A stretch of 64,000 nucleotides of DNA from a virus (IMGVR_UViG_3300032038_000010:32001-96000), one strand, 5' to 3'; counted from the first letter of the stretch, positions 1 to 59,613 are shown. Numbers and translations: made by a program. The notes: generated by a model not told the origin, from the sequence alone.

Positions 1-952
1 CTAATTTCTTAAGTTTTCTTCTCTAACTAGTTATATTCTTACGAGATAACTACTTAATGATTTTACCAGTCTGAATAACTCTAATATTTTTCTTTAAGAA
101 AGTCATTCCATGACCTATTTTAGTAATTTTTATTTTGGTAGGTTTTAAAGTTAAATCTAACGCATCAGCTTCTTCATGTAACGCATTGACAATTTGTAAT
201 GCTTCTTCTTTAGTATGGACAATCGCATAGCTATCATCCATATATCTACCATAATATTTACAATGCTCTTTCTATTTAATTCTCTTATCTAATGAAGTAG
301 GATAATAAATAGCGCAGATTTGAGATACTTGGCTACCTAGACCAAGCCCTCTATTTCCGAAGCAATTAATAAAATATTCAGTTAATTCTAATATATCTTT
401 ATCTGGAATGATTTGCTAAAGTTTCTAAAATAATATCTAATGATTAATGCTATTAAAGAAATCGGAGAAATCAAATACAACTACATAAAAATCATTTCCC
501 CATTCTCTATATGCTTTCTCTAAATGTTTATACAATCTCTATAAAGTAAATTGAACACCTTTGTCCTTTAAACTAGCGCCATTATCATATATTAGATATT
601 TCTGAATTACAGGAATAAGGTAATAATCGCATAAACATCTTTGAACAACTCTTTCAGATATATGTACTGCACGAATATGTCTTTTCTTTCCACGCTACAT
701 AATATTAAACTAAACAAAACCTCTGCTTTTATAGGTTTTATTTAATAATCGATTGCGTAATTCAATTAATTCAGTTGGAAAATTTTGCTAATATATTTGA
801 ATACTAGCTTTCCACCTAACACCTTTTCTACATTGAAAAAATGAACTAATTAAATTATCTAATGAAAACAACTAATCTAATGTATGTGGAATATTATCTT
901 TCTTATTCGCTTTCTTTTGTTGTTGTCGTATGATTCTATTAATCTTTTTCAT
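1..952 (-). CDS. DGR reverse transcriptase (3' end runs off the window; 11 in-frame TAG)
   Basis: ATG at 952 reads MKKINRII...CRKGVRWKAS...RGKKRHIRAVHISERVVQRCLCD...FDFSDFFNSINH...GLGLGSQVSQ...YGRYMDDSY. RT motifs including YMDD stay in one frame, broken only by TAG. Adjacent to TR and avd. Confidence 0.95.
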
Positions 953-1257
953 AATATTAAACAAAAAAAATATTCCCAAGGCAGTGGGTGGTAATATCTA
1001 ATTTACTAACTGCTTATATAATAAGATTTGAAAAATTGAATAAATTAGAAAAACTTCAATTCCAAGCGTAGGTAGCAAACACTCATTATATCCTGAGAAT
1101 CAATTTAATAAATTAAAAATAATTTATAGAGTCATCAGTTCCTTCAAATGTTTATTTCAATAATTATATACTAAATTTATAGTACCACAAGACACTATAA
1201 TAAAGTTATATCCTAGATCAGCCTCATTACCAATCTATCTAACAGATAGTATATATA

Positions 1258-1287
1258 ATTTAAATGTTTAAGAATAAACATTTAAAT
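1258..1287 (-). other. Perfect 13-bp hairpin immediately 3' of TR (IMH* side)
   Basis: ATTTAAATGTTTA-agaa-TAAACATTTAAAT on the + strand. Confidence 0.7.
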
Positions 1288-1415
1288 CGCAGGCAACAAA
1301 CCCATTGTTACCGTTGGCCGCGTTATTGTTGTTGGCACTCCCGTTCGAGTTCACATTGCAGAAGTTATTTGAATTGCCCGAATTAACTGAACGCAAGAAC
1401 CAGTTATTAGCGGAA
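1288..1415 (-). repeat. DGR template repeat (TR)
   Basis: 128-bp copy of 2108-2235. It has 19 mismatches, all at coding-strand adenines of this copy, and is rich in AAC/AAT codons (SANNWFLRSVNSGNSNNFCNVNSNGSANNNNAANGNNGFVAC). Confidence 0.97.
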
Positions 1416-1436
1416 GGGCGCATAAAGCGCCCTTCC
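1412..1436 (-). other. Perfect 10-bp GC-rich hairpin at the 5' boundary of TR
   Basis: GGAAGGGCGC-ataaa-GCGCCCTTCC. No 3' U-tract in either orientation, so not a typical terminator. Confidence 0.7.
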
Positions 1437-1620
1437 AAAACTAACAAACAGTATCCTTTTTAAGCGAAACAAAATTAAAACAAGTAAATAAGGAAAACTA
1501 GAATATGAAGACGAAGTATCAGGAGAAAACTGACCAACAATCAACGAAATAAGTCCAACTTCACTTCGAGATCATTGCTAGTTTCCAACTAATAACTCGT
1601 TACTATTTTTGGTTGATAAG

Positions 1621-2043
1621 TTACTTTTTATTCATCTTTCTATGGTCATTCGCTAAATCATGAATGGCATTATCTAAAGATTGAATACATTTGAACAATT
1701 GATTATATAATTGTTCTTTCTAATGCGGAGTCATTTGTTTATGGTCATCATATAACTCTGTATAGACTGACAGTTCAGCATTAAATGCTTGTAGCGTAGT
1801 ATAGGCTTGCATTAAAGCGTCATGGGCTTCTTCATAATCTTTCTAATTAGCCATTTTTCTATAAAAATTATATCCTATAACCTAGTGCTAGTAAACAAAT
1901 TGAGCCATCCCCTAGAACTTACCTAAGAAAGTAAGATTAAAACGCTTTTTCTACCCATATCTAAATAACATGACAACTAAATCTCTGCCGTCTTTTAAAT
2001 ATTCTGTAGAAGCAAGGTCTCTACTAGATACTAGAACTGACAC
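1621..2043 (-). CDS. avd: Avd-like DGR accessory protein, 140 aa (6 in-frame TAG; missed by ORF track)
   Basis: AAAGGAGGTG RBS and GTG start, MSVLVSSRDLASTEYLKDGRDL..., helical composition, ends TAA at 1621. Size and position between target and TR are typical of avd. Confidence 0.8.
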
Positions 2044-2096
2044 CGATTAGTTCACCTCCTTTCTATATCCTTCTATATATCGAAAAATTTTACCCA

Positions 2097-4187: not shown

Positions 4188-4204
4188 TCTCTATTTATCT
4201 CCTT

Positions 4205-4783: not shown

Positions 4784-4796
4784 TTCATTACCTCAC

Positions 4797-5619: not shown

Positions 5620-7854
5620 TTACTCAGACACCACAAACCAATAACCTTTATCATTTAGTATGGCGGCGTCCGCGTCATCTGGCTTTGAACCAGTACTATC
5701 GGCTTTCGCAACCAGCATCGTAAGATGAGGCTTTACACTTGTAGATGATAAATCCTGGATCTTATACCAACCCTTATTACCGATATAATCATAAGCATAA
5801 AGCTCTATCATACCGCCATTCTCTACAGTTGCAACCCAACCTGCTCTATTTGCGGTCGCCGCATCAGTCCCAAAACCACTCGGATACGCAGCCTTTAAAG
5901 CATCAAGCGAGGTATAATGACCAATGATGTGGTTCCCAGAAAGAATAGGACCTAGATTCTCCCAACGGTATAGCTGGGTCCCCGCACTTTCATTTTTCTT
6001 ACCGTCCGCATCCAGTTCATAATAATTAATCAATCCATCTCTATACTCAGGACTAGACCAGAGAATACATAGATTATCACCATATAATTTTGCATTAACT
6101 ACATAATTTAAGTTATCAGAAATAATTGTTTCATCTCCAATAACAGGGTCGCCACTATCTGTGTGACCTATATTATAATTAGCAAATAGATTCTGCTCTT
6201 GAAGAATATCGCCTTTGTTCTTAATACCAATTTTATTAATTGTTTTCAATTTCAAAGGTAATGTAACAGTATCCTTGACACCATTTGTTTTTGTAGAGTA
6301 AGTAACAACGATAAAATTATCATTATTCAAAGATAAATTATCTACAGACTTTAATGTAGTAGCTAATGTATCTTCATCTCCTGTATTATAGATGATTCTA
6401 ATCGTACCATTATCATCTATAACCATCTATTTAACAAACTTGATTTGTGTAGGAATATATTCAATGTTATGTCCATCCGCATCAGTAGTAGGATAAGAAA
6501 TTACATCACCTTCTGGACTAAGCGTAGGAATATCATTTATAACAATGTTCCCCCTACCATCTCTATTGTAGGTATTATATCTAATAACAAGATTTTGTAG
6601 CTGGTCATCAAAATATACATCTTCAATATTCTTAAATGTACTAACTTGTGTTCTCTCATTTATGTCAGTATACTTGGCATAAACGCTACCATCTTTATCT
6701 ATTGAAAAACCTTCAAGTAGACGAATATTAACAGTATCGTCATCTCCTGCGGTATAATCAATAGTAAGAAGATTAGGAGGAAGCGGGTTCTACTTAATAA
6801 CTTGCCAAACTACTGAACCATCAATAACCTTGCTTCCTTCTACGTAATTAGTTAATACTAAATTGCTATCACTTGTCGTACCTGCGGTTCTACTATCTGA
6901 ATTAGTGCTGCCAATGCACATGAGCAATAACCCGCTAGGTAGTGTATTATTCTTAGCAATAGTACCAATAGCATAAGATGTAGAGCGTGCGGCAGCCTGA
7001 TAAGTAACTGGTTCATTAGTATTACTTGGTGTTATATCTTTAATAACTCTATAAGCACCAATGTTAGTAATTTCCTTTTCACCAGCTTCACTATTTTCAT
7101 AGTTAGTTCTAGTTACTTCAAAATACTGAGCTTCTTCGTCATCTTTATTGACAACTAAATTATTTACATCTGCGCCATGCTTACCTCTAGGTACACTAAT
7201 CTTCCAGCTACCAGTAAAAGGTCTATTAACAGTCTGCTCTGCTAATTCTGCGGGCGCGTCATAAGGACTAACCTCTTCTGCGGAAAGATGTAATACATAG
7301 TATGGAATAGTAATACCTAATTGGCATCCATATACATTACCATCTTTATCCTTTAGCGTAGTATACTTATAAGTAATATTATCTTGTGTATCACCTGCTA
7401 CACTATCAATCTCACCAGTGCCAGACGTTGCGCCATCTGTAATCTCTGACTCTTTTACAATATGCAGTTCTGGAGTCTCGCCCTGCGGACCTACAATCTG
7501 TCCAATATATTCTGCGCCCGCGCCAGGAGCAAGAACATAAGCAGTAAATGCTGTTTTATATGCGGCCGGGTCAGGGTTACCTGTGGTCGGGTCCTTATAG
7601 TCAGATAGGACAGGGGCCGCCGCAATGTCTTCAGTATAATTAAATCCTCTTCGGTAAATTATACCATTCTCAGGGTTTTGCTTCTAATGATTATTTATAA
7701 TAGTATCTATAATAATATACTATCCATAACCTACTTCATTATAACTCCCGCCCTAAGAAAAAGCTTTACACATATCTAATACACTGTCGAAATGTTGTAC
7801 TAGATTATATGTGATGCCTGATTTACCACCATAAAATGATGTTACACTAGACAT
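5620..7854 (-). CDS. Tail tip/baseplate-region protein, ~744 aa (several TAG)
   Basis: AAGGAGG RBS and ATG at 7854 (MSSVTSFYGGKSG...GAEYIGQIVGPQG...). In frame with ORF 5620-6426 across TAGs. Confidence 0.75.
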
Positions 7855-8170: not shown

Positions 8171-8184
8171 TTAATCAACCTCCA

Positions 8185-8959: not shown

Positions 8960-10996
8960 TTATAATTTCTGTTGACATTTATAAGCAGATATATTCATCA
9001 AAGAATCTATATCTAAAGGTAATGATATAGACTGAATCATATAATCTCCATTAATTCCTATAACATTATCTTTCACACTAACTCTTGTGTTAGGTTCAAG
9101 ATAATAAATAGGTATAGATGATAATTGAATAGTTTCATTCATATTAGTATATTGATATAAAAGCTATGTAATTCTTTGATAACAACTATTCTGAGTTCCT
9201 CCTACAGTAAATAAATCAAATAATGTTTGATCTACTTGCATATAATCCTGACCTCTTGCAACGCATTCATTTATTTGCTCTTGTTGCTACTAATCAGATA
9301 AATTAATATCAATAAATACTAAATCTGGTATGGATTGTTCAAAAACACAATTAATTTTATCTTCTGAAACAACTACACTGCGGCGGCCTATATTCTAAAT
9401 ACTATATTGACCAACCTAAGAATTATCATCTATTAAATCTAACCAGTAATTAATTTTACTTGGATTTTCTCTTACACTATCATAGAATTTTTGAGTCTTA
9501 AGATTAAATAATTTAGGCCATTCATTTACTAACTAAGTAAAATAATAAGGTTGAGCAGTACCGGTATCTAAAGCCTCAACACCCTAATAATATAGTTCCT
9601 CTCTCCAATCTACAGTAGTTACAGTATAATTAGGTAATTCAATTTCATTAAATTCTTTTTTAATCTAATTATACATATAATATTTAGGAGAAGTTAAATA
9701 CCCAATTACATATATAGTATTCTACTTCCCCTAAGGAGGAAGAACCTAGACCTATTTCATAAAATCTGCGGCCGCCCTAATTATACCATTATCATCTGTA
9801 TAATAACTTACATAATGTGTTTGGCCTATCTATGGTTTTTTATCTATAGCTAAATGGTATCTAACAGGAATCTACGTCTAGCCATCTGCTAATTTGCGGA
9901 CACCCCAAACTAAGAAATCATTTTTAACATTATTATAATTAGGAGTATTACTTGTACTAGATATTAACTTAGTCCCCTAAAAACTATATACAGATTTTCC
10001 GCTAGAGAAGTCCACATTATAATTAGGATCTCTATTAATATGATTTAATATCTCCGTAGTGTAAGTCGTATTTAAATAATTTTTTATCTCTTGAAAATGA
10101 AAATAACCATTCACATCATAAAAATATTCATAATTACCAAGTGTTGAAATAATTTTATCTAATACACTTGTAACTGTCGCCCCAGCATCACAATTTAAAT
10201 CGCCAGGATAAGTAAAATCAGTTAAAATGAATCCGATGTCGGAACCTGGTTCGTATGTGATAATATCTGACTCCTATACGCCGTAAGCACCTGCGGCCGC
10301 CGTAGCCTAATCATAAGTATAATAGAATTGTCTAGTAATTGTGTCATCTACTGTATGCTATAAATAAAATATAGGTTTATTCCCATTATATCTCATGACT
10401 TGTTTTATTTTATCATCTAAGTCTTCGATAATAATTTTAGCTGCATCTTCAGCCCCAAAATGATTAACAAGCTAATATATTATCTTAGATATAACTGGAT
10501 AAGTTATTTCCCCATATTCATTCTCTTCCTAACTGAAAGTGACTGCAGCGGGTATAACTCCTCCCAAATCTCCATTCAATAAACACATTTTATCTTTAAG
10601 AGAAATATTAATAGTTACTCCCGAATTTTGATGACTCAATGAGACCGCCGCAATCACAAATATTCCTAATGGAAACCAAACTATATCACCATATTTAGGA
10701 TTTATTTCATTCTTAAATCCTAATTCAAGTTTAAGTTTCCTATTAATAGATAAATTTTGATCTATATTAGTTAAATCATTTTCTTGCTCTTCTGCGAACA
10801 TACTAAAATTGGATGTACGCCTTAAAGAAGAATTACCATCTAGGTTTAAAGAGCCTGAAGTAGCTTTACCTTGAATCTCTACTATAGGCTCTTCTCCCCA
10901 AGTTAGTATAGTTAAACGCACATATTGTTCTTTAATTCGCAGATTATCTAATTCTTTAAGAAAAACAGAATCTTGTAAAAAATCTGTACTATTCAT
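8960..10996 (-). CDS. Tail tip/hub protein (DUF5048-like), ~678 aa, TAG-rich
   Basis: ORFs 10529-10999 and 8960-9142 are in the same frame, linked by TAG-only interruptions. TGATG overlap with the upstream gene. C-terminal PIYYLEPNTRV motif. Confidence 0.8.
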
Positions 10997-13635
10997 CAAT
11001 ATATGCCTTTCTATGTTTCTATTTGATAATTAACGATTGCATTGACAGGGCAAGCTATTTCATAAGTTTTTGTGTTAGGTAAATATGCGGCGGGCCACCA
11101 TTTACCATTATAAAAGATATGGGCGACGCCATCCTCATAAGCAGATAACTGAGTCACAACTGTAGGCTTAGAACTATTAATCATACCTTGATGATTATTT
11201 AATTTTCTAGCTTCAATACTTACTCCATAAAAATAAGCATCTGTAATAGTTGATGTGTTATCACCTGGGTCTATAAATAACTAATTTGTTTCATCAATTA
11301 TTAATTTCTAATAATTACTGTCTGCTTTTGTCTGAACATAAATAATTGTACCTTGATTAGCTTCAACATCTATATTCTTTAAAGAATTCACTTTTAAATA
11401 ATATTCATCTAAATCTTCATGATATTTTTGATAAATAGTATTCCATAAACTAGACTTGGAATTAAAATTACCGAAAAGTTGGCCCATAACACTTTTATAT
11501 ATTAGGGAATTAGCAATATTACTTGTATCTTTTTCTTCTGACAGTTCAATTACAAAATCTAATAATATTTTTGTATCTTTGAGTGGGGTAATATTCCAAC
11601 TAGATGTAATAGATACATCACTACCTCTTATCTAGTATATATTATTTGGAGGCTCAATTAATATATTCTAACCATTTATATTAATTAAAGTACCAAGTAG
11701 AGTATTTTCATCTACTGTATCTACGCCTTCAACAAATGGACTTAACACTCCATTATTATTATTAATTAAATAAGGCTCTGAATCTATCTCAATACGCATA
11801 TAAGAAATAGAAAAATCATTAATTAATATATCATTAACACTTTCCCCTACATGGTATTTAGATTTAATAGTTTCTATATTACTTTTTATGCCTGATGTTC
11901 CTAGTAAATTAAAATTAGCAGGATAAGCTTGCTCCTAGATAGAACCATCTTCACTATATTTAAATCTATTCAGCTGCCCTAATGTTGTCTATGACCAAGT
12001 AATACTATTCTGCGGCGCCCCTATTTTTTGAATATTATATTTATCAAAATTCTAAATTGTAGGTTCATCGATTTCTATTGCGGTGCAATCGAAAGAATAA
12101 AGCAGCCGCCCCAGTTCTTGCTTAGGAGTAAGTGTGATACCCATTAACTTAATAAGGATATTTCCCTAAGTTAATGATTTAAATAATTTAGGCTTATTAT
12201 CATATAAAAAAGTTTTAACTTTTTCTCTAAATTCTCTCTATAATGTGTAATCATACTCTCCTGAAATAACATTTAAAGTATGGCTTCCATGAGCCTATTT
12301 ATATAGACTCGTTTCGTTATCTAATAATTCATCTTCATTAGTAAATAAATTATTATTATCCATGCAAGCTGTAATTAGACCACTTAAAGGAAAAGAATGA
12401 TAATACATATTACCATTACGTCTTACATATGGATATTTGCTACCTATGGTATCTGTTTTTGATTCTCCTATATTAATTGAAGCGTTAGCAATATTAGTAT
12501 CATATCTAAGTTTTAATTGTAGGGCCTAAGATTTAGACCCGCCCTTTTCTACAAGGAAAGCATCATCAAACTAGCCCATCTATTTACTAGATGTAACTAG
12601 ACTACCTCTGCGCCCCTTCTACCTTAATTGCGCTCCATACTGATAGAATACTCCAGATTTAATAGTAAAATCATCAAATTCCCACCTAATAGTAGAATCT
12701 ATTGTTGTATAATTAGCTACATCCTACCATATTTGAAATTGAGATTCAGAAGAAGTACGTCTAAGTGTAATATTATTCCCTCTAGCAGTAAAAACCGCAT
12801 TAACTACAACTGCCGCATATCCATCTTCCTAGTTGATCTACAATTCTACTGTACCATTTAACGGAGAACTAGCAAATGTAATAACTTGAAATTTATATGA
12901 AATACTATCTTTATACCCGTTTCTTGTCTATATTTCATAAGTAAGAGTATAATGGGCATTATTCTTCATAGTATAACGCAGTTGACATTCCATTTGAGTT
13001 TTACCATTTACAGAAGTGAAAACATTAGCTATTTGTTCTCCTGAATCAGCTAATAATTCGTTCCCCTATTCATTATAAAGTTTTATTCTCCAAGTTTTAA
13101 GAGTCTATTTACCATTTCTTGTATTATTAGGGTCATATACTCCTACGAATATTGGTTCAGCAGAACCATAAGTATTAGTAATAGATGAATCTGCATCCAT
13201 GAAATTCGTTATGTATATCTGCGGAGGTACTATTGGTTTTATCAGTGTAACAGTAGACCATTCAGATACATCAGACGATAAATTTGCGGCGGCCGCATTA
13301 CTAGGCCATGCCCGACCACTAAACCTGAGTTGTACTTTATAAATCATATCTGGATCAAATGGTGATTGAACTAAGTCACTTGGGTCTAATGTAACGTAAT
13401 ATAGAGTCACCCCATCTGACTAAATATGATGTATTGTGGTACATTTAATTTTATTTGGATATTTATTTGTATTTAGAGCATTTCTATTATTTGTTTGATA
13501 CTTAACAGTTAGTTGAACTTGTGCTATACTGCTAAGTGAATTAAATTGCGAGAGCTGGAAATAAATGTTAACCGACTTAGTATACGGAAAAGCATTTTGA
13601 CCCGCCGCAACAATAGGTGGGAATAACATACCCAA
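10996..13635 (-). CDS. Distal tail/baseplate protein, ~879 aa, TAG-rich
   Basis: ORFs 13420-13635 and 13105-13410 continue in frame (...DTIGSKYPYVRRNG...PKLFKSLT*GNILIKLM...) to TGA at 10996. Confidence 0.8.
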
Positions 13636-13659: not shown

Positions 13660-14031
13660 TTATTTCTTCTACGGGGCGGTAGTAGGTAAATCAACTATTT
13701 CATCTTTAATCCTGTCAATTATGCCATCGCCACCTAAGTTTTTGTATGCTAAATATAATGGGTGATATACTTCTCGTTCATCTAAAGTATAATAACCTTG
13801 TCTCTTAGTGTGTCCATAGTTCTAGAGTAAAGCTATACGTATCAAACCAAGCATAGCCTACTTAAAAGTATGTCTCTATTGTTCTTGCTCTAACTTCATT
13901 TGACGCTATTTCTATCTATATTCATGTGTCTCTTTGTCTCTCCGATTAAGACGTATAGATATAGAAGTACTAATAAAAGCTGAAATAGCTCCAATGCCTA
14001 TCGTTATGAGTTGAGTTAAAACTGGATTCAT
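13660..14031 (-). CDS. Holin-like membrane protein, 123 aa (6 TAG; missed by ORF track)
   Basis: ATG at 14031 after AAAGGAG. N-terminal TM (LITIGIGAISAFIS), charged middle, and a C-terminal Y.AYKNLGGDG motif typical of Firmicutes phage holin-annotated proteins. Confidence 0.6.
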
Positions 14032-14088
14032 TAGAATCTCCTTTCTCTAAAGGGTGTATTTCATTACCTCTAAAAATAAAAGAAAAAA

Positions 14089-14116
14089 GGGCAAGACTGT
14101 TGAATACATCTTGCCC
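14089..14116 (-). terminator. Rho-independent terminator after the large tail fibre gene
   Basis: GGGCAAGA...TCTTGCCC stem followed by a T-run on the minus strand. Confidence 0.6.
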
Positions 14117-14123
14117 AAATTTC

Positions 14124-17100
14124 TTATTTATTTTTTATTAATTTTTTAAGCTATTTTATTTCTGCTTTAAGCTACATAATCTATTGTTCTTGATGTTGAA
14201 TCATTGAAATGTGAAGTGCATGAAGTTCACTATAATCAAAAGTATAATATTCATTTTCCCCATTATTTAAATACTTAGTAACATCAAAATTTATATCTGA
14301 ATCTTTAGCTTTATTTTTTGATATAAATTTAAATTGATTATTCTAAATGTTTAAATTTTTGTTAATATCTTGTTGCACATCTTGTGCAATTAAACCAAAA
14401 TGAATTTTATTATAGTCTTTATCAATTTTAGAGTATTCTTCACAATATTTAAAAGTAACAGGCTGTAACTGTTTATAAAACTAAATAATATTATCATTAG
14501 ATAATTGATGGATATTAGTTTTTAATCTTTGATCAGATGTCTTGCCGCCGCCCGCTCCTTTTCGCTCAAAATTATCTTGAACATAAGTAACTGAAGCAGC
14601 ATTTGCCCCTTGAAAATCAATATTCCCATAAGCAGTCAAAGCAGCAGTTAAATCAGCTGTGGTAGAAGGTAAATCAGATTTTTTAACGTAAGGATTATTA
14701 TAATTTTGTTTTAAGTAATTATTAAGTTCTGGCCTAATGACAAGATCTTCAATATCTATCCTGATATTATCTTTAGTAATTAAAGTATCAGCTTTAATGC
14801 CATTAGCTTTAATGCCATTAGCTTTAATATTACCATCTTCATCCCAATAACAACGAGAATTATTTAAATATATTAAATAAGGATCGTACTACCCTCCAGC
14901 AATAGGTTTCCCAATTCTAATGCTAAAATAACCTGGTGAAGATTCTGAATGGTATCCGCTGTTTGCTCTAAACACACCTCTCGCCCAAACATTACCAGAA
15001 GAAGCTGCATGGAAAGCTGCGTCAACGCCACTTCGAGTATCAGTATAATTTAATAAAATAAAGCCTTTACCATCTCCAAGACTAGATGTACCACTTGTAC
15101 CGATCCAAACATCATTATTACCAGCTTTATAATAACCATTTTGGCCATCAAGTATTACATTATTCTAAATAGATTTTAAATATCTACCTTGATTGGTATC
15201 GTATATAGTCCAACCGCCAATAGTGCCACTCGTCGCAGTAATTTTACCACTGAAATCGCCATCAATAAATTTGGCATTTTTAGCAGTTAAATTACCAATA
15301 GAGCTAACTACAAAATTATCTGGGCCAAAATTTAAAGAGCCATTAGAATTTATAACAGCATTACCACTTACGCTATGTATACTATTGTAATCAATTACCC
15401 ATCCTGCTATATTTCCTTTAGCCGTCCATAACTCACCATTAAAATAACCATCAGTAAAATAACTATTATTAGCAACTAGATTCCCCTAATCATCAACAAA
15501 GAAATTAGAACCTCTACCCGCAGTAAAGCTACCATCTGAATATACTATAAATTTATTATTAACATCAATACGTTTATATTTGAGTCCACTACTATAATCT
15601 TTAACAGGATACCAACTAATAACGCTTCCATTATTATCTTTAATTAACTCTATCCTTGTAGGATATTCACCTTGACCATTGTCATTCTTATAAGAATATA
15701 AAGTAGTTTGCCCATCTTGGCTAGTTAATTTTTTATCACTAATCTTCCATCCGGCGATATCACCACCACCTTTAGCAGTTAAATATCCTTTAGGGGTGAC
15801 ACTAAAATTTCCACTCTTAAATTTAATCTAAGGTCTGTCAAAATCAATTAACATACCCTAAATTCTATCTCCATGAAAATAGCTCCAAGAAGCAATAGTA
15901 CCATTAGTACCGCCACTAGCATCGGTACTAATGTTAATCTGACCATGCCCCGCCGCACCGAAACTAGCAGAACCAGTATTTGCATCTAAGAAAAATGTTT
16001 GAACACCTTTCCCGTATCCAAACATACCAGTCTGTTCATGAGCGGCCGCCCCTGGTTCAGAATACATAGAGGTACCAATTACAACACCAGTAAATCTATT
16101 ATTATTATCTTTCTTGCCTGCACCAACTTGTGGAGCTAAAATATAATTATCTCCGTTAGTATTAGTAACTATTGATGTACCATCCCAACCATTTATATAA
16201 GCCATGCCGTATCTATTTAGGTATAAATAAATAGTTATGATAATAGTATAGTCACGATATTTAACTACTACATAATTATTAATAGATTTACTATCATATT
16301 GTGAAGGAGGCTCAATAGTAACAAACTCTGGATGATTTTCATCTTTTCTTTTAACAGAATTAGTATCTAGTACTCCTGCCCAATAAGGTTTCCATATTAC
16401 TTCTGTAGGATTTACAAATTGTTCTACTCCATCCTTGAATAATCTAAATCTAAATGGTTTCCCATTAAAACTAGTCCTAGTACCGTCAGATTCATACATA
16501 CATTCTCTATATCCACCATCTACTATAGCGAATATAGTTTCATCACCTGTAGTAGCGATATCAATAGGGTATGTAGCGTAATATCTTTTTCTCTCATTGA
16601 CTCCGCCATAAGTAGTAGCTAATTCAACTTGGGCAACAGAAGCAGAATAATTATTACTCTTATAACTTATAGCTCCATTTGCGGCGACCGTGATATTAGG
16701 ACTCACATTTTTAACTACTTCCCCAGTAGGAAGAGTCATAACACTCCAATTAATCTCTTTAGAAGAATCATTCAACTGGTCTGTCGTAACTTTTATCCCA
16801 GCTGACACCCCATCATATAGCGGGGCCGCCCCATCATCATAAAATAATAATTTTAAAGGATAAGAGTCATTTATCTATTTGAAACTAAAATTATCTGAAT
16901 AAGTTGTTTCTCCACTTGTTGAATTATAGTGGACTTCTGTTAGTTTCTTATATCCATATAATCTACCATTACTAAAAAATATATTATCTATATTATTAAT
17001 AGCAGGCTGTATATTTGCTATGTATTTAGTGCCATTACTTCCACTTTGTCCCTATTTGATAAATATAAAATTAGTATTAGCAGAATAAATTTTACCACCA

Positions 17101-18962
17101 AATGTTACTTCAAGTCTAATAGTATTATCTGTTCTATCCGTATCATATATATTTCTAATCCCATAAGTAAAAGTAGCACTATCAGCTAATATAGTTCTTT
17201 CTATGTTACTATTGTTACTTGGATTAGTTATAATCTATTTACTTAAAGCTACATCAGTAGTAAGCATTGTATAATTATCTTCTGGCCATATCCATTTTGG
17301 GGCAAAAGTCTATACAATCTAATTATTTGTCATATCATTTGTAATTAAACTTTTACCCTATGGAGTAATAACGTCAAAAGATAAAGCTATTGGAGTTATT
17401 TTTGGAGCTTTACCATATTCATCATAATTAAATACTTTGGAACCATTTTTAATAACTACTGTGACATTCTACGTCTATCCATTAGTTAAAGTAATATAGC
17501 CAGTACCTACATAATGGCCATTTGAGCTATATGCAGTACATTCATAAGTAACAATATCTAAAACTTCATGTATTCTGACATCTATAATATTATTGTGACT
17601 ATCCAAATTAATCAGTGTGCCATCCTTAGTCCTATAGCCCCAATAATATACAAAATCTAAATATGGAGTTCCACTAACAATAGCTGTAAGTTTAGTGTAG
17701 CCTGTGTTAAAATAAAATTGAGTACCGGCAGTAGATGTAATAAGTAATTTAGTCCCGACATAATAACTAGCATGATAAAAATTAATTTCAGCATTTAATT
17801 GAATATTATCATATATAGCTACGCACTTAAATATATGCTATTTACTTGGAACTAATGTAGGTTTAATCTAATATTTTGCGGCGGCCGCCATCCACGTCCC
17901 TGACCTACTTTCATTCAAGCAGCGCCATCCAGCTCCGCCGTATGAATTATAATATTTAGTACTTTCCGCAGTAATACTTGTATCTTTAATAAACCAATAA
18001 AATTCAACTTTCTCTGTTGATAGATTAATTTTTTTACCTTTAATTTTTAATTCAGCTTCCAAATATCGAGTATCATCATTATCACTTATGATGTAATTCC
18101 CATTTGGAGTTAAAATTTTTAACGAGGCGGTCGAAAGTTCATCATTATTTAAAGGCTCCGCAAAAAATAATCCAAAGTTAGATAAGAAAATATCATCAGG
18201 TTTATGGTATTTAGTATTTGGAAAATCTTTACAAAATGCTGTTATTGCAGAAATATCATATAAATTATTTCCATCTATCTAAAAATATACTACTTGTTCA
18301 GTAGGTAAAGTAAATTTATATGGTTGCCCAATCATATTATTCACATCTAAAACATAAGTACGAGTTATTAGCTTATCTGGGTCAGCAGATTGATGGGCAT
18401 ATTGTGAATCATAATATCTAGCTTGAAGTATTATACCATAATTACCGGTGACTTGTTGCTCTAAAGGTAATGCCGTCTGAACAGTAGCTTTTAAACCAAT
18501 GTATGCGCGCCCGTCCTTATTTAAAGTAATATTCTATTTATCTACTGATAATCCATGTTGCAGAAGATCAATAGTCTGAACCCCGCTATAAGAACAAAAA
18601 TTAACTGCGGCGGTCCCCACTAAAATATTTGACCCTATCTATGTCATTCTATCTGATGGGGTAAGAACATCTAAATATTGAGTTCCCTTTTTAGCAATTT
18701 TACTGATTATTGTAACTACAGTATCAGGATTGGATGGAAGTCTAATAAATACGTTATCTCCAATTCTATATTTTGTATTACTATCTTCTGAATAAGCATT
18801 TAATACACTATTTTGATATTGTACTTGATAATGACCCAAACCACTATCTATAACTTGTAAGATAGAGGCTCTAACAGTTTTATCAAATTGAAGATTTGAA
18901 ACTCTGTTTTTAATTAAAGTATCTACCGCTTGAAGTACGGTATCTTCAATACTTGTTGTCAT
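14124..18962 (-). CDS. Large tail fibre/spike protein with C-terminal S74-type intramolecular chaperone, ~1612 aa, TAG-rich
   Basis: ORFs 18639-18962, 17868-18062 and 15858-16808 share one frame to TAA at 14124. IAGW/IGGW fibre repeats, then SDQRLKTNI...HFGLIAQDV...YSELHAL and a terminal coiled coil. Confidence 0.8.
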
Positions 18963-18988: not shown

Positions 18989-19016
18989 ATAGGAGGGGCG
19001 GCCCGCCCCCTCCTAT
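18989..19016 (-). terminator. Hairpin/terminator after the tape measure gene
   Basis: ATAGGAGGGG...CCCCTCCTAT inverted repeat. Confidence 0.55.
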
Positions 19017-28000: not shown

Positions 28001-28438
28001 AGCACTATTTGCTAATGTTGTTCTAATCTTATCTAATGTAGCACTAGTTTGAATTAATTTTGTATTTGTGCTTAAAGCTGATGCAGTAATATTATTAAAA
28101 GCATTTTGTCCAGTTGCACCTAATTTACTAAAATCTTGCGCAATTTTATTTATCCCAATACGAGACAATTCTTGATTAAATTTACTAATATTAATAGTAC
28201 CTAAATCAGCGTTAAAAGCTTTCATTAAAGCTTTTTCAACTTCATTTGCAGTTGTTTTAATTTTCTTTAATTCACTCGCTGCATCGGTCCCAAGCTTAAA
28301 TTCAACATTTTTACTACTTAAAGATTGAATTTCAGATAAAGACTTTTTAAGCTTATCTAAATTAGAATTATCAATTTTAAAATCAACACCAAAAGTGATG
28401 TTACCACCACTCATTCCGCCACTTCCATATTTTGGCAT
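19016..28438 (-). CDS. Tape measure protein, ~3140 aa (about 19 TAG)
   Basis: Twelve ORF-track fragments share one frame. N-terminal TP901-type TMP domain (APESVGTALKTIYARM), helical repeats, C-terminal FATGGYTG...AMLHQKELILN. Confidence 0.92.
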
Positions 28439-35080: not shown

Positions 35081-35393
35081 TTTTAACACATTCTTCCAAT
35101 GAGCTTAACAATGAAAGACACTCAAAGATTGTTCTCCGATAATTCATAAAATCTTCTTTTTCTGTCAAAGTAAACAATCCTTCAAGCTTGCTCAAAAGAG
35201 AAAAGAAAAGAGGTTGTTGTCCGACAAACAACCTCTGTATTCCAGACAATTCTTCCATTAATGTATTTAATGGCTTCGTCCAATCTGTGCCTTCTTCTCT
35301 CATAGGAAGTAATTTATATGTTTGATTAACAAGTCTTTTAAAACTATTTTCAATAGCAGAATCGTCTATATCTATATTATACTTAATAATCAT
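35073..35393 (-). CDS. Hypothetical protein, 106 aa
   Basis: ORF track; AAAGGAG RBS; overlapping start and stop with neighbours. Confidence 0.75.
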   Translation of the reverse strand: MIIKYNIDIDDSAIENSFKRLVNQTYKLLPMREEGTDWTKPLNTLMEELSGIQRLFVGQQPLFFSLLSKLEGLFTLTEKEDFMNYRRTIFECLSLLSSLEECVKNE

Positions 35394-35980
35394 TGGGGCG
35401 CATCTCCTTTCGTGGTTAGCATAACCGCAGGAGTCTACATAATCTTTCCAAATGTAGAATGATACACTCCATTAACATCTTTTATTCTGCGTTTATACAA
35501 TCTCTGTAAATGAAACCCTTCTCGTTCATAATCCTTTTTAAGCTGGAGTAGTTTCTGCATGTGGTTGGCCTGAGATGTAAATTTAAAGTCAGCTCCAGAA
35601 TACTTCATACGCACATTTTCAACAGAAGCAAGCTGTTGCCCAATCCAATTGACAATCATATATACAGCTAAAATGTTCTCTTCCTCTTCGGTAAGTTTAT
35701 GAGTAAAATAATACTCTATTTTAGGGGTATCCTCTTTCGGCTACTCTTCTTTAGTTGTATCATCTGCTGTTTTAGTTGTATCGTCTTCTGACTGTTTTTC
35801 TTCCTTGATATAATCTAAAGGGACACGAGGAAATTCAAATTTTTGAATTGCTACTCGCAATAGCTCAAACAACATTGCTTTAGTTTCATCCTCAGTCAAC
35901 TACATATACATATCGTCTGTAATCTGGTTTAAAAATAAATCATAAACTTGAGTAAAGGGCGTATAATCTTCATTCCCCAT
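35390..35980 (-). CDS. Putative head-tail adaptor, 196 aa (3 TAG)
   Basis: ATG at 35980 (MGNEDYTPFTQVYDLFLNQITDDMYM*LT...FKFTSQANHM...). Reads to TGA at 35390 with an ATGA overlap. Confidence 0.7.
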
Positions 35981-54106: not shown

Positions 54107-54108
54107 TT

Positions 54109-54136
54109 AATGGTGCAGTCTTAAGACTGCACCATT
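54109..54136 (+). terminator. Rho-independent terminator after gyrA
   Basis: AATGGTGCAGTC-ttaa-GACTGCACCATT followed by Ts. Confidence 0.8.
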
Positions 54137-54185
54137 TTATTTTTATCAAAAATTATTATATAATATATATATAGAAATAAGAGAG

Positions 54186-56691: not shown

Positions 56692-56727
56692 AAGTTATGA
56701 AAAATTTTGATATAATATATTTAAGAA

Positions 56728-56910
56728 ATGAATAAGAGAGAACAAAAAAAAATCGCTAATCGAGTAGCGAAACTCGAAAGGAATATATCATTGGGCAAAA
56801 ATGTTAAAGAAGCTCAAGCTGAAATTGAAAATATAATGACTACCCTTTCGATAGAAGATTTTATTTACATTGATAATTATATTCAAGAAATATTTTCATT
56901 GACAAAGTGA
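56728..56910 (+). CDS. Hypothetical protein, 60 aa
   Basis: ORF track; starts just after a sigmaA-like -10 box, so possibly leaderless. Confidence 0.6.
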   Translation: MNKREQKKIANRVAKLERNISLGKNVKEAQAEIENIMTTLSIEDFIYIDNYIQEIFSLTK

Positions 56911-56927
56911 AAAATTTTTGATATAAT
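56899..56927 (+). promoter_or_regulatory. sigmaA-type promoter
   Basis: TTGACA-17 nt-TATAAT with TG. Confidence 0.8.
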
Positions 56928-57015
56928 ATATATATAATAAAGGAAGAAAATTATTAAACTACTACTTCCAATATTAAAAACTACTAATAATAATTTTTTT
57001 AAGGAGAAAACAACT

Positions 57016-57294
57016 ATGGCACTTAAGGAAAATTCACGCAAGGTTTATGATTATGTTTCTGCACATGATGGCGAGGACTTTACAGCAAAGGATATTGCTG
57101 CAGCACTCGGACTTGATGCTCGTCAGGTAAATGGTATCGTTACTTCAGCTTTCCAGCGTAAGGGACTTATGGAGAGAGTTGAGGCAGAAGTTGAGAACGC
57201 AGACGGTACGCATGATAAGGTTAAGCTCGTTAAGCTGACAGACGCTGGCCGCGAGTTCGATCCAGATGCTGATCCTGAGAAGAAGGCAGAGTAA
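57016..57294 (+). CDS. Small winged-helix DNA-binding protein, 92 aa
   Basis: TAKDIAAALGL..RQVNG...RKGL.ER...LTDAG. Strong codon bias; own promoter and terminator. Confidence 0.75.
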   Translation: MALKENSRKVYDYVSAHDGEDFTAKDIAAALGLDARQVNGIVTSAFQRKGLMERVEAEVENADGTHDKVKLVKLTDAGREFDPDADPEKKAE

Positions 57295-57361
57295 TATATA
57301 ACATACATAGTATGCCAATAGGGTTGGGTTATATGACCCAGCCCTATTATTTTATAAAATT

Positions 57362-58294
57362 ATGATAATTGTTTTAACAATATTGATTATAATATTAATC
57401 ATATTGTTATTGAAAATGTGGCAAGATTTAAAACAAACAAAAGCATTTAAAGCAAAATAGATTGCTGATGCGACCGCCGCGCAAGAACAATATGATAATC
57501 TTATAAAGTCAATTAATGATTTAAACCTTGAAAAGGTTAAATTATATAGTGAAATTGAAACTCAAAAGAAAAATATAAATTCAATATATGAATCTGAAAC
57601 CGCTCGTATTCAATCTGAGATTGAACGATATAAAGATAAAGCTACTTACGCTGCTGAAGAATATGTTAATTCATTAAAACAATCATATGTGAAAGCAAAG
57701 TAGCAGCATGACGCACAATTATTACAGTTAGAAGAGGATAAAAAAGAATCCGAATTAGCTTTAGATAAAATACGTCAATCTTTAAGCGCGGGGGTCCAAG
57801 CTAAATTAAGATAGCAAGAAAAACGCACTCAATTAGATTTTTATAAATTAAACATTACAAATACTGAACTACAAGATATACAATTACTAGAAAATGTAAA
57901 ATTAAATTTACATAATCCGATAATTTTAAGTAAACTTATCTGGAGTACATATTTTCAAAAACAAACTAATGAACTATGTAATAGAGTAGTTGGTGTAGAT
58001 AAAAAATGTGGTATTTATAAAATCACAAATATCAATACTGAACAAGTATATATTGGACAAAGTGTTGACATTGGTTCTCGTTGGAAACAACATATTAAGT
58101 GCGGTCTGGGAATAGACGCTCCCGCAACCAATAAGTTATATAACTCTATGCAAAAAGATGGAGTTTGGAATTTTTCTTTTGAAGTTCTCGAAGAATGTCC
58201 GAAAGATCAACTAAATGAAAAAGAAGCTGAATGGATTAATATGTATCAAAGTGATAAATTCGGATATAATAGTACAAAAGGTAATAAAAGTTAA
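57362..58294 (+). CDS. N-terminal TM, coiled coil and C-terminal GIY-YIG nuclease, 310 aa (3 TAG; missed by ORF track)
   Basis: MIIVLTILIIILIILLL...; TAG at 57458, 57701 and 57812 in frame; CGIYKITN...YIGQSVDI..RW.QH...LNEKE..WI. Confidence 0.82.
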
Positions 58295-58305
58295 GGAGTT
58301 TAAAT

Positions 58306-58932
58306 ATGGTAGAAATTCCTACGATTGCAGATACGCTGCAGAAGGTAAAAAATAGTAAGTAGGCTTATAAAACATATGAAAATGCTATAAACAGTCTATC
58401 ATATTGGAAGCGACATTTAATTCTTGGAGTAATCGAGGATGATACTGGAGAATCTATTGAAAGTATGATTAAATTCTGGAACGCTCAAGATGATGAAGCT
58501 AATGTTCCAGTAGATAAAAGACAACCTATTTTACTCTTTGTTGATTCACCTGGTGGAGATTTATCTGCTGCTTTTACAATTATTGATTCTATTGCTTTTT
58601 CAAAAACACCTGTATATACTATTAACATAGGCTGCGCATATAGTGGTGGTTTCTTTGTATATATTGCAGGTCATAAACGGTTTACCTATCCGCACGCATC
58701 TTTCCTTTACCACGAAGGAAGTACAGAAATTGGTGGAGACGCAGGTAAATTTCAAAACTTTTCTGATTTCTATAAAGAACAGTTAACTGAATTAAAAAAC
58801 ATAACCTTGAAATATACAAAGATTTCAGAAGAACTTTATAATGAGAAACGTCGAGATGATTGGTGGATTACTGCTGATGAATCTATTGAATTAGGCGTTA
58901 GTGATGAAGTTTTAGACCATTTTATATATTGA
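58306..58932 (+). CDS. clpP: ClpP-like protease, 208 aa (1 TAG)
   Basis: AAGGAG RBS and ATG at 58306; TAG at 58360; DSPGG, AYSGG, YHE and DDWW motifs. Confidence 0.85.
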
Positions 58933-58941
58933 GGTTTATTA

Positions 58942-59613
58942 ATGAAATTTGAAAATACAGAAGTAATGAATTTTAAAGGGGCTTTCAGAGGATTGCGTAA
59001 TCCTCTTGAGTCCTGGTCTAAATCAGATAGCTCATTTGATAATGGGATGACCATAATCGGAGAAAAAGACTTGAATCTGGCGCAACGCATGATTAAAGCT
59101 GGATCAAGTGATTCTAAATTTCTTCGACAGATTTTTGTGTCTGTAGACATCACGGGCCCGTTATACTGGCTCAAGTAGCTAGACACTTACAAAGTAGCGA
59201 CTGTTGCTAATAGCACCTCAACGATGCACAAATTAGCGTCCACTCCTATTACAAAAGAATGTTTTGAAATGGGAGATTATAACAATCTTAAAGTATATGA
59301 TAATGAACCATATAAAATTAATGATTATACTGATGATTGTTGGGATGAAATAATTAATATTTGCGAAACACTTCGTCAAAGATACAATGAAACAAAAGAC
59401 CAAAGGTACTGGAAAGAATTAATTCGTATCTTACCAGAGTCTTGGCAACAGACTAGAACTTGGACAAATAATTATGCGGGCCTCCGCAATATTTACTTTC
59501 AAAGAAAAAATCATCGTTTAACTGAATGGTCAAATGATTTTTGCTCTTGGATTAAAACTCTTCCCTATGCAGCAGAATTAATTACATACCAGCCAGAGAA
59601 ATCTACTGATTGA
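58942..59613 (+). CDS. ThyX-like (flavin-dependent thymidylate synthase family) protein, 223 aa (1 TAG)
   Basis: Two ORF-track fragments join via TAG at 59176: KFLRQI...PLYWLK*LDTYKV..NSTSTMHKL...LPES..Q.R...NY..LRNIY.QR..H.L.EW. Confidence 0.75.

What the first reader, a model, noticed from the sequence alone, without database searches (positions are those of the whole stretch)
1..59613. Recoded TAG often sits at Glu-consensus positions: possible TAG=Glu or mixed Glu/Gln phage code
Seen: in-frame TAG at RT GFV*F (710) and IM*RGKKR (695), RT INH*IL and ITS*RRKLK, tail SLT*GN (12166), YFT*LVNEW (9533), GYG*YII (7720), adaptor DDMYM*LT (35900), portal ANR*SM (39710), ThyX-like WLK*LDTYK (59176). 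From recalled family consensus (ERGK, HEIL, TEGN, YTEL, YGEY, MELT, NRES, WKE.DTY) these are usually Glu. A few others (ELYY*G at 9584, AFS*GG at 7753) look like Gln sites. Established: TAG-recoding gut phages are assigned code 15 (Gln). Many Firmicutes make Gln-tRNA indirectly, with a non-discriminating GluRS followed by GatCAB amidation. Inference: a phage CUA-anticodon tRNA charged with Glu and not, or only partly, amidated would give TAG=Glu or Glx, a code I do not know from bacteria or phages. The alternative is TAG=Gln with tolerated E-to-Q changes via GAG-to-TAG mutation.
Basis: partly seen in the sequence, partly recalled or inferred. Interest (0 to 1): 0.9.

Follow-up and report, generated by a model that had tools for sequence, protein, structure and literature searches.

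The report
Gut phage reads TAG as glutamate
This 137-kb human-gut phage uses the stop codon TAG about 200 times inside its virion genes, and comparison with relatives plus its own mutated glutamate tRNA indicate TAG means glutamate, not the glutamine that literature and databases assume for such phages.

Summary
The window lies in a complete 136.9-kb phage distantly related to phAss-1, with 137 in-frame TAGs in window genes, mostly late genes.

- **Named sites:** all ten exist. The "Glu" sites are Glu in relatives (35902: 8/8; 39712: 5/5; RT IM*RGKKR: 138/148 homologs). The two "Gln-like" sites are just variable columns.
- **Decoding:** Codetta-style tests call TAG as Glu. E beats Q by 26.7 lnL against a standard-code relative, and 57/57 sense-codon controls decode correctly. 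All 9 invariant TAG columns are Glu.
- **Control:** the same method gives Gln for phAss-1, as published, and Glu for relatives G001, G004 and G005.
- **Strain level:** in a sister lineage, TAG exchanges with GAA/GAG like a synonym (42%) and almost never with CAA/CAG (1.6%).
- **Decoder:** a CUA tRNA 8.7 kb upstream of the window (genome 23216-23289), missed by ARAGORN and Rfam, is the positional and sequence ortholog of a relative's tRNA-Glu(CUC). It keeps the Glu determinants and lacks the U1-A72 and G73 of tRNA-Gln.

Mixed Glu/Gln insertion is not excluded without proteomics. I found no publication of TAG=Glu in phages or bacteria. Earlier AI notes of this scan reported it on other DNA.

The parts
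2..1078 (-). Reverse transcriptase gene (first 359 codons; the gene runs past the window start). It has 12 in-frame TAGs, 11 of them inside the conserved RT. NOTE: the key part of the system, the CUA suppressor tRNA, lies outside the window at genome 23216-23289 (+) = L001:7216-7289, 8.7 kb before the window start, so it cannot be listed as a part.
   Evidence: 150 full-length homologs at E<=5e-50. TAG columns are dominated by E (X128 E138/148; X123 E74/148; X269 E56 D41). Profile decoding gives TAG=E, with CAA=Q, GAA=E and AAA=K as correct controls. For the tRNA outside the window: cloverleaf with loop CUCUAAA, same slot as tRNA-Glu(CUC) of L085 and 58/74 identical to it, and Glu determinants kept.
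5620..7854 (-). 744-aa late protein with 5 in-frame TAGs
   Evidence: TAG at 7722 aligns with E, E and TAG in relatives.
8960..10999 (-). 679-aa tail protein (phrog_32343 / DUF5048) with 21 in-frame TAGs
   Evidence: Relatives have E at 9535 (5/5) and at 10474 (6/6).
10996..13635 (-). 879-aa tail protein (phrog_30026) with 22 in-frame TAGs
   Evidence: Relatives have E at 12168 (6/7), 12240 (5/5) and 12726 (5/5).
13660..14118 (-). 152-aa small late protein (weak holin-like match) with 7 in-frame TAGs
14124..18962 (-). 1612-aa tail fibre protein with 23 in-frame TAGs
19016..28438 (-). 3140-aa tape-measure-type protein with 20 in-frame TAGs
   Evidence: The homolog in L081 carries PF10145 PhageMin_Tail.
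35390..35980 (-). 196-aa head-tail adaptor-like protein (phrog_3853) with 3 TAGs, including 35902
   Evidence: Position 35902 is E in 8/8 relatives, including the standard-code Enterococcus phage VRE9_2.
39701..41323 (-). Portal protein with a TAG at 39712, three codons before the stop
   Evidence: phrog_2739 portal. The position is E in 5/5 relatives.
57362..58294 (+). 310-aa protein with 3 TAGs, including 57812
   Evidence: Position 57812 is E in 4/4 relatives.
58942..59613 (+).
   Evidence: The position is E in G001, G002, G003 and G005, and TAG in G004.

Best explanation
In this phage TAG is a sense codon for glutamate. The phage carries its own amber-suppressor tRNA (genome 23216-23289, 8.7 kb upstream of the window), which is a tRNA-Glu(CUC) whose anticodon changed from CUC to CUA by a C36-to-A mutation.

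Inferred steps: a host glutamyl-tRNA synthetase charges this tRNA with Glu, because it keeps the Glu-specific core (U11-A24, U13.G22, 4-nt variable loop). The Glu is not converted to Gln, because the tRNA lacks the U1-A72 pair that the amidotransferase needs and the G73/G36/U38 that GlnRS needs.

GAG/GAA-to-TAG changes are then synonymous. They have accumulated mainly in late (virion and tail) genes, while early genes stay almost TAG-free, as in other recoded phages where late-gene translation depends on the phage suppressor.

Shown: TAG is in frame in essential genes, TAG sits at Glu columns, TAG exchanges with Glu codons, and the CUA tRNA is a tRNA-Glu ortholog. Inferred: who charges the tRNA, that no amidation occurs, and the regulatory role of the early/late partition.
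For: (1) RT gene against 150 homologs: E is the top residue at 7 of 11 TAG columns, and one column is 93% E. Profile decoding gives TAG=E, with the next best K at -4.5 and Q below -9.5 lnL, while CAA decodes correctly as Q.

(2) Genome-wide codon comparison with 9 relatives: GAA/GAG 102 against CAA/CAG 21 at our TAG positions. E beats Q in 8/9 relatives, by 26.7 lnL against standard-code G002, and 57/57 sense codons decode correctly.

(3) Invariant columns across at least 3 lineages: TAG columns are 9/9 E. True Gln codons give 87 Q and 10 E; true Glu codons give 208 E of 226.

(4) Internal control using only standard-code references: ours is E (Q -13.7), G001 is E (Q -82.6), G004 and G005 are E, but phAss-1 is Q (E -35.8), which matches PMC10607447.

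(5) Strain-level test in sister lineage L081-L084: TAG pairs with Glu codons 42%, TAG 44% and Gln codons 1.6%. True Gln codons pair with Gln 89% and TAG 0.5%.

(6) The CUA tRNA occupies the slot of tRNA-Glu(CUC) in the closest relative and is 78% identical to it. U11-A24 and U13.G22 are invariant across 8 Glu-family tRNAs including this one, 14/21 pairs covary, and the 1-72 pair shows a compensatory C-G versus U-A change. The identity rules are from PMC9976931.

(7) G001, the relative with the strongest Glu signal, has a different CUA tRNA whose best matches among a Clostridia genome's tRNAs are its two tRNA-Glu.

(8) The phage has no GluRS/GlnRS or release-factor gene, so host enzymes must act.
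Against: - There is no protein-level evidence. Everything here is comparative inference.
- TAG columns are less conserved than ordinary Glu columns: 33% E in G002 against 55% for GAA/GAG codons. Many TAGs therefore sit at variable sites.
- With small gene-matched matrices the signal weakens, and for G006 it flips to Q. Enterococcus phage VRE9_2 alone is uninformative.
- The CAG share falls more (0.37 to 0.22) than the GAG share (0.25 to 0.23) in TAG-rich genes, and the amino-acid budget against G002 fits E or Q about equally.
- The tRNA has A36 where GluRS normally reads C36. It has a non-canonical T loop and no GG in its D loop, and tRNA finders reject it, so its function and charging are unproven.
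- Amber suppressors are prone to glutaminylation by GlnRS in E. coli (stated in 10.1101/2021.08.26.457843). In a host with GlnRS, some Gln insertion is therefore possible.
Confidence: 0.85

Rival explanations
1. TAG is read as glutamine (ordinary code 15). The TAG codons arose from GAG by G-to-T mutation at sites where Glu-to-Gln is tolerated.
For: Code 15 is the only amber reassignment reported for phages. The relative phAss-1 is Gln, both as published and by my own test. The CAG share is lower in TAG-rich genes. About 7-10% of TAG positions align with Q in relatives.
Against: Under TAG=Gln, CAG-to-TAG would be a synonymous transition and should dominate. Instead 0 of 9 invariant TAG columns are Q, where about 6 would be expected from true Gln codons. 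The Q frequency at TAG columns (7%) equals the background for Glu codons (6%), not the 40% seen for Gln codons. TAG sits at a 93%-conserved RT Glu and at an 8/8 Glu in the adaptor. In the sister lineage TAG pairs with Gln codons only 1.6% of the time. The CUA tRNA lacks every Gln-specific determinant except G10.
Confidence: 0.04
2. TAG is decoded ambiguously as a Glu/Gln mixture, because part of the Glu-tRNA(CUA) is amidated or part of the tRNA is charged by a host GlnRS. The phage tolerates this by placing TAG mostly at less constrained sites.
For: TAG columns are less conserved than ordinary Glu columns. The maximum-likelihood E fraction in E/Q mixture fits ranges from 0.58 to 1.0 with wide intervals. 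The amino-acid budget test is ambiguous. GlnRS is known to glutaminylate amber suppressors.
Against: The tRNA has C1-G72, A73 and A38, so it lacks the U1-A72 needed by the amidotransferase and the G73/U38 used by GlnRS. TAG does occur at invariant Glu sites (9/9). There is no excess of Q over background at TAG columns.
Confidence: 0.09
3. The host itself reads TAG as Glu, and the phage simply follows its host's code rather than switching code during infection.
For: Earlier AI notes of this scan (e1-3784972, e1-3747887, e1-3786220; not checked here) describe an uncultured gut Clostridia lineage with a chromosomal Glu-type CUA tRNA and in-frame TAG at Glu sites. Hosts predicted for this phage group are Clostridia.
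Against: TAG density is about 1 per 1000 codons in the early regions (genome 0-20 kb and 70-110 kb) against 12-21 in the tail region. The phage also carries its own suppressor. That is the pattern of phages that infect standard-code hosts. The host of this phage is not identified.
Confidence: 0.12

Closest known systems
TAG-to-Gln ('code 15') recoded gut phages: crAss-like, Lak, Garnet/Topaz and the phAss-1 group (Borges et al. 10.1101/2021.08.26.457843; Babkin et al. PMC10607447)
   Same: In-frame TAG is concentrated in late and structural genes, and early genes are nearly TAG-free. The phage encodes a CUA suppressor tRNA and has no synthetase of its own. TAA and TGA are kept as stops. Head and tail genes are homologous to phAss-1 at about 33-43% identity.
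   Different: The amino acid differs: TAG columns are Glu here and Gln in phAss-1 by the same test. The suppressor has a tRNA-Glu body and not a Gln-type one. Borges et al. state that only TAG-to-Gln and TGA-to-Trp were seen in phages whose code differs from the host's.
Nuclear codes with TAG=Glu: NCBI table 30 (peritrich ciliates) and table 31 (Blastocrithidia)
   Same: TAG is read as glutamate.
   Different: Those are eukaryotic nuclear codes that reassign TAA as well (and TGA to Trp in table 31). Here TAA ends 104 and TGA 53 of 157 predicted genes. No NCBI table has TAG=Glu alone.
Classical amber suppressors made by a one-base anticodon change, for example E. coli supE = tRNA-Gln CUG-to-CUA (own knowledge)
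   Same: A single anticodon mutation at position 36 turns a sense tRNA into a UAG reader. The relationship to an orthologous tRNA is still visible.
   Different: The parent here is tRNA-Glu(CUC), it is carried by a phage, and it serves about 200 codons as part of the normal code rather than rescuing a mutation.
Indirect Gln-tRNA pathway: non-discriminating GluRS plus GatCAB (PMC9976931)
   Same: It explains how a GluRS can tolerate variation at anticodon position 36, and why the 1-72 pair decides whether Glu is kept or amidated.
   Different: That this pathway exists in the unknown host is inferred and not shown. The tRNA here lacks the U1-A72 amidation signal, so it should leave the pathway still carrying Glu.

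Membership tests
Stop-codon-recoded phage with its own suppressor tRNA (Borges-type) | Many in-frame TAGs inside conserved, otherwise intact genes | tested here: met
   137 in window genes and 213 genome-wide; ORFs fuse when TAG is read as sense.
Stop-codon-recoded phage with its own suppressor tRNA (Borges-type) | Recoded codon enriched in late/structural genes and rare in early genes | tested here: met
   TAG per 1000 codons is 12-21 at genome 30-50 kb against about 1 at 0-20 kb and 70-110 kb.
Stop-codon-recoded phage with its own suppressor tRNA (Borges-type) | Phage-encoded tRNA with anticodon CUA | tested here: met
   Genome 23216-23289; cloverleaf with loop CUCUAAA. Standard tRNA finders missed it.
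NCBI genetic code 15 (TAG=Gln) | TAG aligns with Gln in standard-code homologs | tested here: not met
   E beats Q by 13.7-26.7 lnL. Invariant TAG columns are 9/9 E and 0 Q. phAss-1 does give Q by the same test.
Bacterial tRNA-Glu (GluRS identity set, PMC9976931) | U11-A24, U13-G22(:A46) and absence of nucleotide 47 (4-nt variable loop) | tested here: met
   UA and UG pairs are present in 8/8 Glu-family tRNAs including the CUA tRNA; the variable loop is AGAA.
Bacterial tRNA-Glu (GluRS identity set, PMC9976931) | Anticodon-loop determinants U/C34, U35, C36, A37 | tested here: not met
   C34, U35 and A37 are present, but position 36 is A and not C. Whether the host GluRS tolerates A36 is unknown.
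Bacterial tRNA-Glu (GluRS identity set, PMC9976931) | Orthology to a bona fide tRNA-Glu gene | tested here: met
   Same slot after tRNA-Tyr as tRNA-Glu(CUC) of L085/L086. It is 58/74 identical, against 54/83 for the neighbouring tRNA-Tyr pair.
Bacterial tRNA-Glu (GluRS identity set, PMC9976931) | Canonical T loop (UUCRANY) and D-loop GG for the tRNA elbow | tested here: not met
   The T loop is GGCAGCA and the D loop is ACGUUAGCUA. Several other tRNAs of this phage also have odd T loops.
tRNA-Gln / substrate of GlnRS or of the GatCAB amidotransferase (PMC9976931) | U1-A72, G73, G36, U38 (and G2-C71, G3-C70) | tested here: not met
   The CUA tRNA has C1-G72, G2.U71, C3-G70, A73, A36 and A38. 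The phage's own tRNA-Gln(CUG) has U1-A72 and G73.
NCBI tables 30/31 (TAG=Glu in eukaryotic nuclei) | TAA reassigned together with TAG | tested here: not met
   TAA is the commonest stop codon (104 of 157 genes). Table contents were checked.

The most novel reading that the evidence does not exclude
A clade of abundant human-gut phages of Clostridia uses a genetic code not listed by NCBI and not reported for any phage or bacterium: TAG=Glu with TAA and TGA as stops. The clade includes this genome, G001, G004, G005 and the L081 lineage, which is seen in more than 100 metagenome samples. The code arose by anticodon mutation of Glu tRNAs, on at least two different tRNA scaffolds. It sits beside sister phages that read TAG as Gln (phAss-1) or as stop (G002/G003). 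The meaning of a reassigned stop codon would therefore be evolutionarily labile within one phage group. Public protein databases currently mistranslate all these proteins with Q at every TAG.
Probability: 0.8. Interest if true: 0.88.

Novelty: new variant of a known kind. Interest (0 to 1): 0.85.

Why it matters
Stop-codon recoding in phages is known, but only as TAG=Gln and TGA=Trp (or Gly when the host uses that code). A TAG=Glu phage code would matter in several ways:

- **A new natural genetic code.** It would be new for the bacterial and phage world.
- **A simple origin.** It shows a one-mutation route from tRNA-Glu(CUC) to CUA, which makes GAG-to-TAG changes synonymous.
- **Lability.** The amino-acid meaning of a recoded stop would differ between related phages (Glu, Gln or stop within one group).
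- **A testable charging question.** It raises whether a GluRS charges an A36 tRNA, and whether the 1-72 pair decides between Glu and Gln.
- **Annotation errors.** Gene callers and databases apply table 15, so proteins of this clade are deposited with Q at every TAG. I saw this directly for P0154 and P0228, which translate from their DNA only with TAG=Q. It puts the wrong residue at conserved acidic positions and misleads structure prediction, profile building and Codetta-like screens that use such proteins as references.

Tried and rejected
1. **tRNA finders.** ARAGORN (default, -i, -ps, -ps90), Rfam at E<=0.1-1 over the whole genome, and my first scan anchored on a UUC T loop all found no CUA tRNA. 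blastn with relatives' CUA tRNAs gave only an 11-nt hit. For a while I wrongly concluded that the phage has no suppressor. The lead from note e1-5757069 and a structure-only scan then recovered it.
2. **The search for related loci.** Queries with TAG-rich proteins found nothing in IMG/VR. A TAG-free neighbouring gene worked.
3. **Pattern scan.** A search for a Glu-type D arm plus a CUA loop gave 0 hits in IMG/VR and 9 hits in bacterial genomes, none of which is a tRNA.
4. **Protein-level column counts.** Counts from the 5.8-billion-protein database looked at first like strong Gln evidence, because P0154 has Q at all 21 sites. These proteins were called with TAG=Q, so only codon-level comparisons were used.
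5. These tests do not discriminate between E and Q.
6. **Gene-matched substitution matrices.** They are too sparse and gave noisy results, including Q for G006.
7. **Typing L087's CUA tRNA.** Comparison with a Clostridia tRNA set was ambiguous.
8. **Sequence look-up in earlier findings.** It returned nothing.

Full report
**What the sequence is.** The window is bases 32001-96000 of a 136,945-bp phage genome whose first ~180 bp recur at the end, so it is complete. Its head and tail genes resemble large siphoviruses of Firmicutes and the gut 'phAss-1' group. NCBI files that group under 'Caudoviricetes code 15 clade', and it has been described as TAG=Gln with Gln-type suppressor tRNAs (PMC10607447). 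Hosts predicted for the group are Clostridia.

**The observation.**
- Reading TAG as sense fuses fragmented ORFs into long genes on the minus strand. Examples are 3140 aa with 20 TAGs, 1612 aa with 23, 879 aa with 22 and 679 aa with 21. The reverse transcriptase has 12 TAGs in the window.
- My gene set has 137 in-frame TAGs in the window and 213 genome-wide. TAA (104 genes) and TGA (53) are the stops.
- TAG density is 12-21 per 1000 codons in the tail region and about 1 in the early and replication regions.
- The two 'Gln-like' sites are just variable columns.

**Decoding test 1, the RT family.** A full-library phmmer search with X at each TAG returned 150 homologs at 34-48% identity.
- At the 11 TAG columns, E is the top residue in 7. 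These include IM*RGKKR (E in 138/148) and GFV*F (E in 74/148). Q is never the top residue.
- A profile built from the homologs alone decodes TAG as E, with K at -4.5, D at -8.1 and Q below -9.5 lnL.
- The same profile correctly decodes CAA=Q, GAA=E, AAA=K and GAT=D.

**Decoding test 2, relatives at codon level.** I fetched nine related genomes or contigs. G002 and G003 are standard-code relatives with 66% portal identity, G001, G004, G005 and G006 are recoded, phAss-1 is recoded, and Enterococcus phage VRE9_2 uses the standard code.
- At our TAG positions these relatives carry GAA 76 and GAG 26 against CAA 18 and CAG 3.
- With substitution matrices estimated from the same alignments, E is the best reading in 8 of 9 relatives. 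Against G002, Q is at -26.7 lnL with n=80.
- All 57 sense codons with enough data decode correctly when subsampled to 80 sites.
- Among positions aligned to at least 3 independent lineages, the invariant TAG columns are 9/9 Glu. For true Gln codons the invariant columns are 87 Q and 10 E, and for true Glu codons 208 of 226 are E.
- If TAG behaved like a Gln codon, the chance of 9/9 E would be about (10/109)^9, or roughly 5e-10.

**Internal control.**
- Decoding each relative's TAG against our sense codons gives E for G001 (Q -38.2, n=97) and E for G004 and G005. It gives Q for phAss-1 (E -14.8).
- Using only standard-code references (G002 and VRE9_2), ours is E (Q -13.7) and G001 is E (Q -82.6). 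G004 and G005 are E, G006 is weakly Q (n=14), and phAss-1 is Q (E -35.8).
- The method therefore distinguishes Q from E in recoded phages and reproduces the published assignment for phAss-1. It also shows two meanings of TAG, plus standard-code members, within one phage group.

**A database pitfall.** A search of the 5.8-billion-protein set with the 679-aa tail protein found P0154 (95% identical) with Q at all 21 TAG positions. Its DNA shows these are TAG codons that were translated with table 15, and the same holds for P0228 ('translates with_TAG=Q'). Protein-level Q counts are thus inflated by hidden TAGs. This makes the Glu result from the RT set conservative, and it shows that public databases already mistranslate this clade.

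**Decoding test 3, strain-level exchange.** I obtained DNA for four strains of the lineage represented by P0228, which is 62% identical to ours and has contigs up to 137 kb in many samples.
- TAG aligns with TAG 44%, with Glu codons 42%, with Gln codons 1.6% and with others 12% (n=123).
- True Gln codons align with Gln 89%, with Glu 5% and with TAG 0.5%.
- Glu codons align with Glu 79%, with TAG 9% and with Gln 3.4%.
- TAG plus Glu together are as conserved (86-88%) as any amino acid. This is what synonymy predicts and what TAG=Gln cannot explain.
- Between that lineage and ours, our TAGs meet E 22, D 10 and Q 7. Their TAGs meet our E 10, D 6 and Q 1.

**The decoder.**
- Standard tools found 18-19 tRNAs at genome 17.5-25.8 kb, including Gln(CUG), Gln(UUG) and Glu(UUC), but no CUA tRNA.
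- An earlier first-reader note on this genome (e1-5757069) pointed to genome 23216-23289. The sequence folds into a cloverleaf with anticodon loop CUCUAAA.
- It was missed because its T loop is GGCAGCA. A structure-only scan recovers it as the only candidate in that region.
- Among 141 phage tRNAs its best matches are Glu tRNAs.
- It shares several features with the Glu tRNAs of this phage group: the U8-C9-G10-U11-C12-U13-A14 and UAGGAU D-arm strands, a 4-nt variable loop, C1-G72/G2.U71/C3-G70 and A73. The phage's two Gln tRNAs have U1-A72 or A1-U72, G73 and a different D arm.
- The gene order in our genome is His-Tyr-CUA-Pro-Gln-Gln-Arg-Gly-Cys. In the closest relative (L085/L086, 80% identical flanking gene) it is His-Tyr-Glu(CUC)-Ser-Pro-Gln-Gln-Arg-Gly-Cys.
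- The two same-slot tRNAs are 58/74 identical, more than the neighbouring tRNA-Tyr genes (54/83). They differ in the anticodon loop: UUCUCAC in L085 against CUCUAAA in ours.
- In an alignment of eight Glu-family tRNAs, 14 of 21 pairs show compensatory changes. U11-A24 and U13.G22 are invariant, and the 1-72 pair is C-G in ours against U-A in the L085 ortholog.

According to the identity review PMC9976931, U11-A24, U13-G22:A46 and the missing nucleotide 47 are major GluRS determinants. U1-A72 is required by the amidotransferases that make Gln-tRNA. G73, U1-A72, G36 and U38 are GlnRS determinants. The CUA tRNA has the first set and none of the others except G10.

G001 carries a different CUA tRNA whose best matches in a Clostridia genome's tRNA set are its tRNA-Glu(UUC) and tRNA-Glu(CUC). 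The phage encodes no GluRS/GlnRS or release factor.

**Mechanism.**
- Shown: TAG is a sense codon at Glu positions, and the phage carries a tRNA-Glu(CUC) derivative with anticodon CUA.
- Inferred: a host GluRS charges it with Glu. This is plausible especially for a non-discriminating GluRS, which already accepts both C36 and G36.
- Inferred: the tRNA escapes amidation and GlnRS because it lacks their determinants.
- Inferred: placing TAG in late genes ties their translation to expression of the suppressor, as proposed for other recoded phages.

**Weak points.**
- There is no proteomics.
- TAG columns are less conserved than average Glu columns, so many TAGs are probably recent and at tolerant sites.
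- Composition tests are indecisive, and the CAG share drops more than the GAG share in TAG-rich genes.
- The tRNA has A36 and an aberrant T loop, so its activity is unproven.
- Partial Gln insertion cannot be excluded, and the host and its Gln pathway are unknown.

**Comparison with what is known.** Full-text searches found no report of TAG=Glu in phages or bacteria.
- Borges et al. state they saw only TAG-to-Gln and TGA-to-Trp.
- A survey of suppressor isotypes lists Gln, Trp, Ile and Tyr, but not Glu (PMC10879173).
- TAG=Glu exists in NCBI tables 30 and 31, but together with TAA=Glu and in eukaryotic nuclei.
- This scan's earlier AI notes report TAG=Glu in other phages and in a gut Clostridia lineage, and other first readers flagged it on this genome. 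Those notes are not independent evidence and I did not check them, apart from the tRNA lead.

**Verdict.** It is a new variant of a known kind of system and is of high interest.

Noticed in passing
L001:7216-7289 (genome 23216-23289, 8.7 kb before the window start): The CUA suppressor tRNA, which belongs to the finding but lies outside the window. It is a tRNA-Glu(CUC) ortholog with anticodon loop CUCUAAA, C1-G72, A73, a 4-nt variable loop and T loop GGCAGCA. ARAGORN and Rfam do not detect it.
   Followed up: yes
L001:7651-7723, L001:5013-5087, L001:8505-8576 (genome 23651-23723, 21013-21087, 24505-24576): Several other tRNAs of this phage also have non-canonical T loops and score poorly: Pro(UGG) with GGCAGGA, Glu(UUC) with AUCGUUC, and Gln(UUG). 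ARAGORN's default run misses five of them. This may be a phage-specific tRNA elbow architecture, or it may be decay.
   Followed up: partly
L085:6757-6831 and L086:2442-2516; G002 137753-137830; G003 2102-2179: Relatives carry tRNAs with 8-nt anticodon loops. L085/L086 has a tRNA-Val-like body with loop UUACUAGU (containing CUA) in the slot where our phage has Val(UAC). G002 and G003 have loops AUUGUGGA and AUUAUGGA. These could be further suppressors or quadruplet decoders.
   Followed up: no
W01 = phAss-1 OQ749652.1: 62442-62532, 62536-62610, 105744-105820 (minus strand): phAss-1's three CUA tRNAs are unrelated to one another. One is 91 nt with a long variable arm (type II shape) and one has a U1/C72 mismatch. 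The published typing as Gln may not hold for all three.
   Followed up: partly
P0154 / L080:621-2657 and P0228 / L081:10001-12109: Proteins of this clade in public collections were called with table 15 and carry Q at every TAG. Under TAG=Glu each of them is mistranslated at up to 21 positions.
   Followed up: yes
G002 (L025-L031) and G003 (L032-L037): Relatives with 66% portal identity use the standard code (no aligned in-frame TAG) and carry tRNA-Glu(CUC) plus tRNA-Glu(UUC). Recoding has therefore been gained or lost among close relatives.
   Followed up: partly
genome 25860-27359 (L001:9860-11359), just downstream of the tRNA cluster: A TAG-free 499-aa DUF2828/DUF7788 protein is conserved next to the tRNA array in thousands of related contigs (7946 hits at E<=1e-20).
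   Followed up: no
window 2-1078 (-): The reverse transcriptase is among the most TAG-dense genes of the phage, with 12 TAGs in 359 codons. Its expression would depend fully on the suppressor.
   Followed up: partly
window 13660-14118 (-): A small 152-aa protein with a weak holin-like match has 7 TAGs. This fits the idea that lysis genes are gated by recoding.
   Followed up: no
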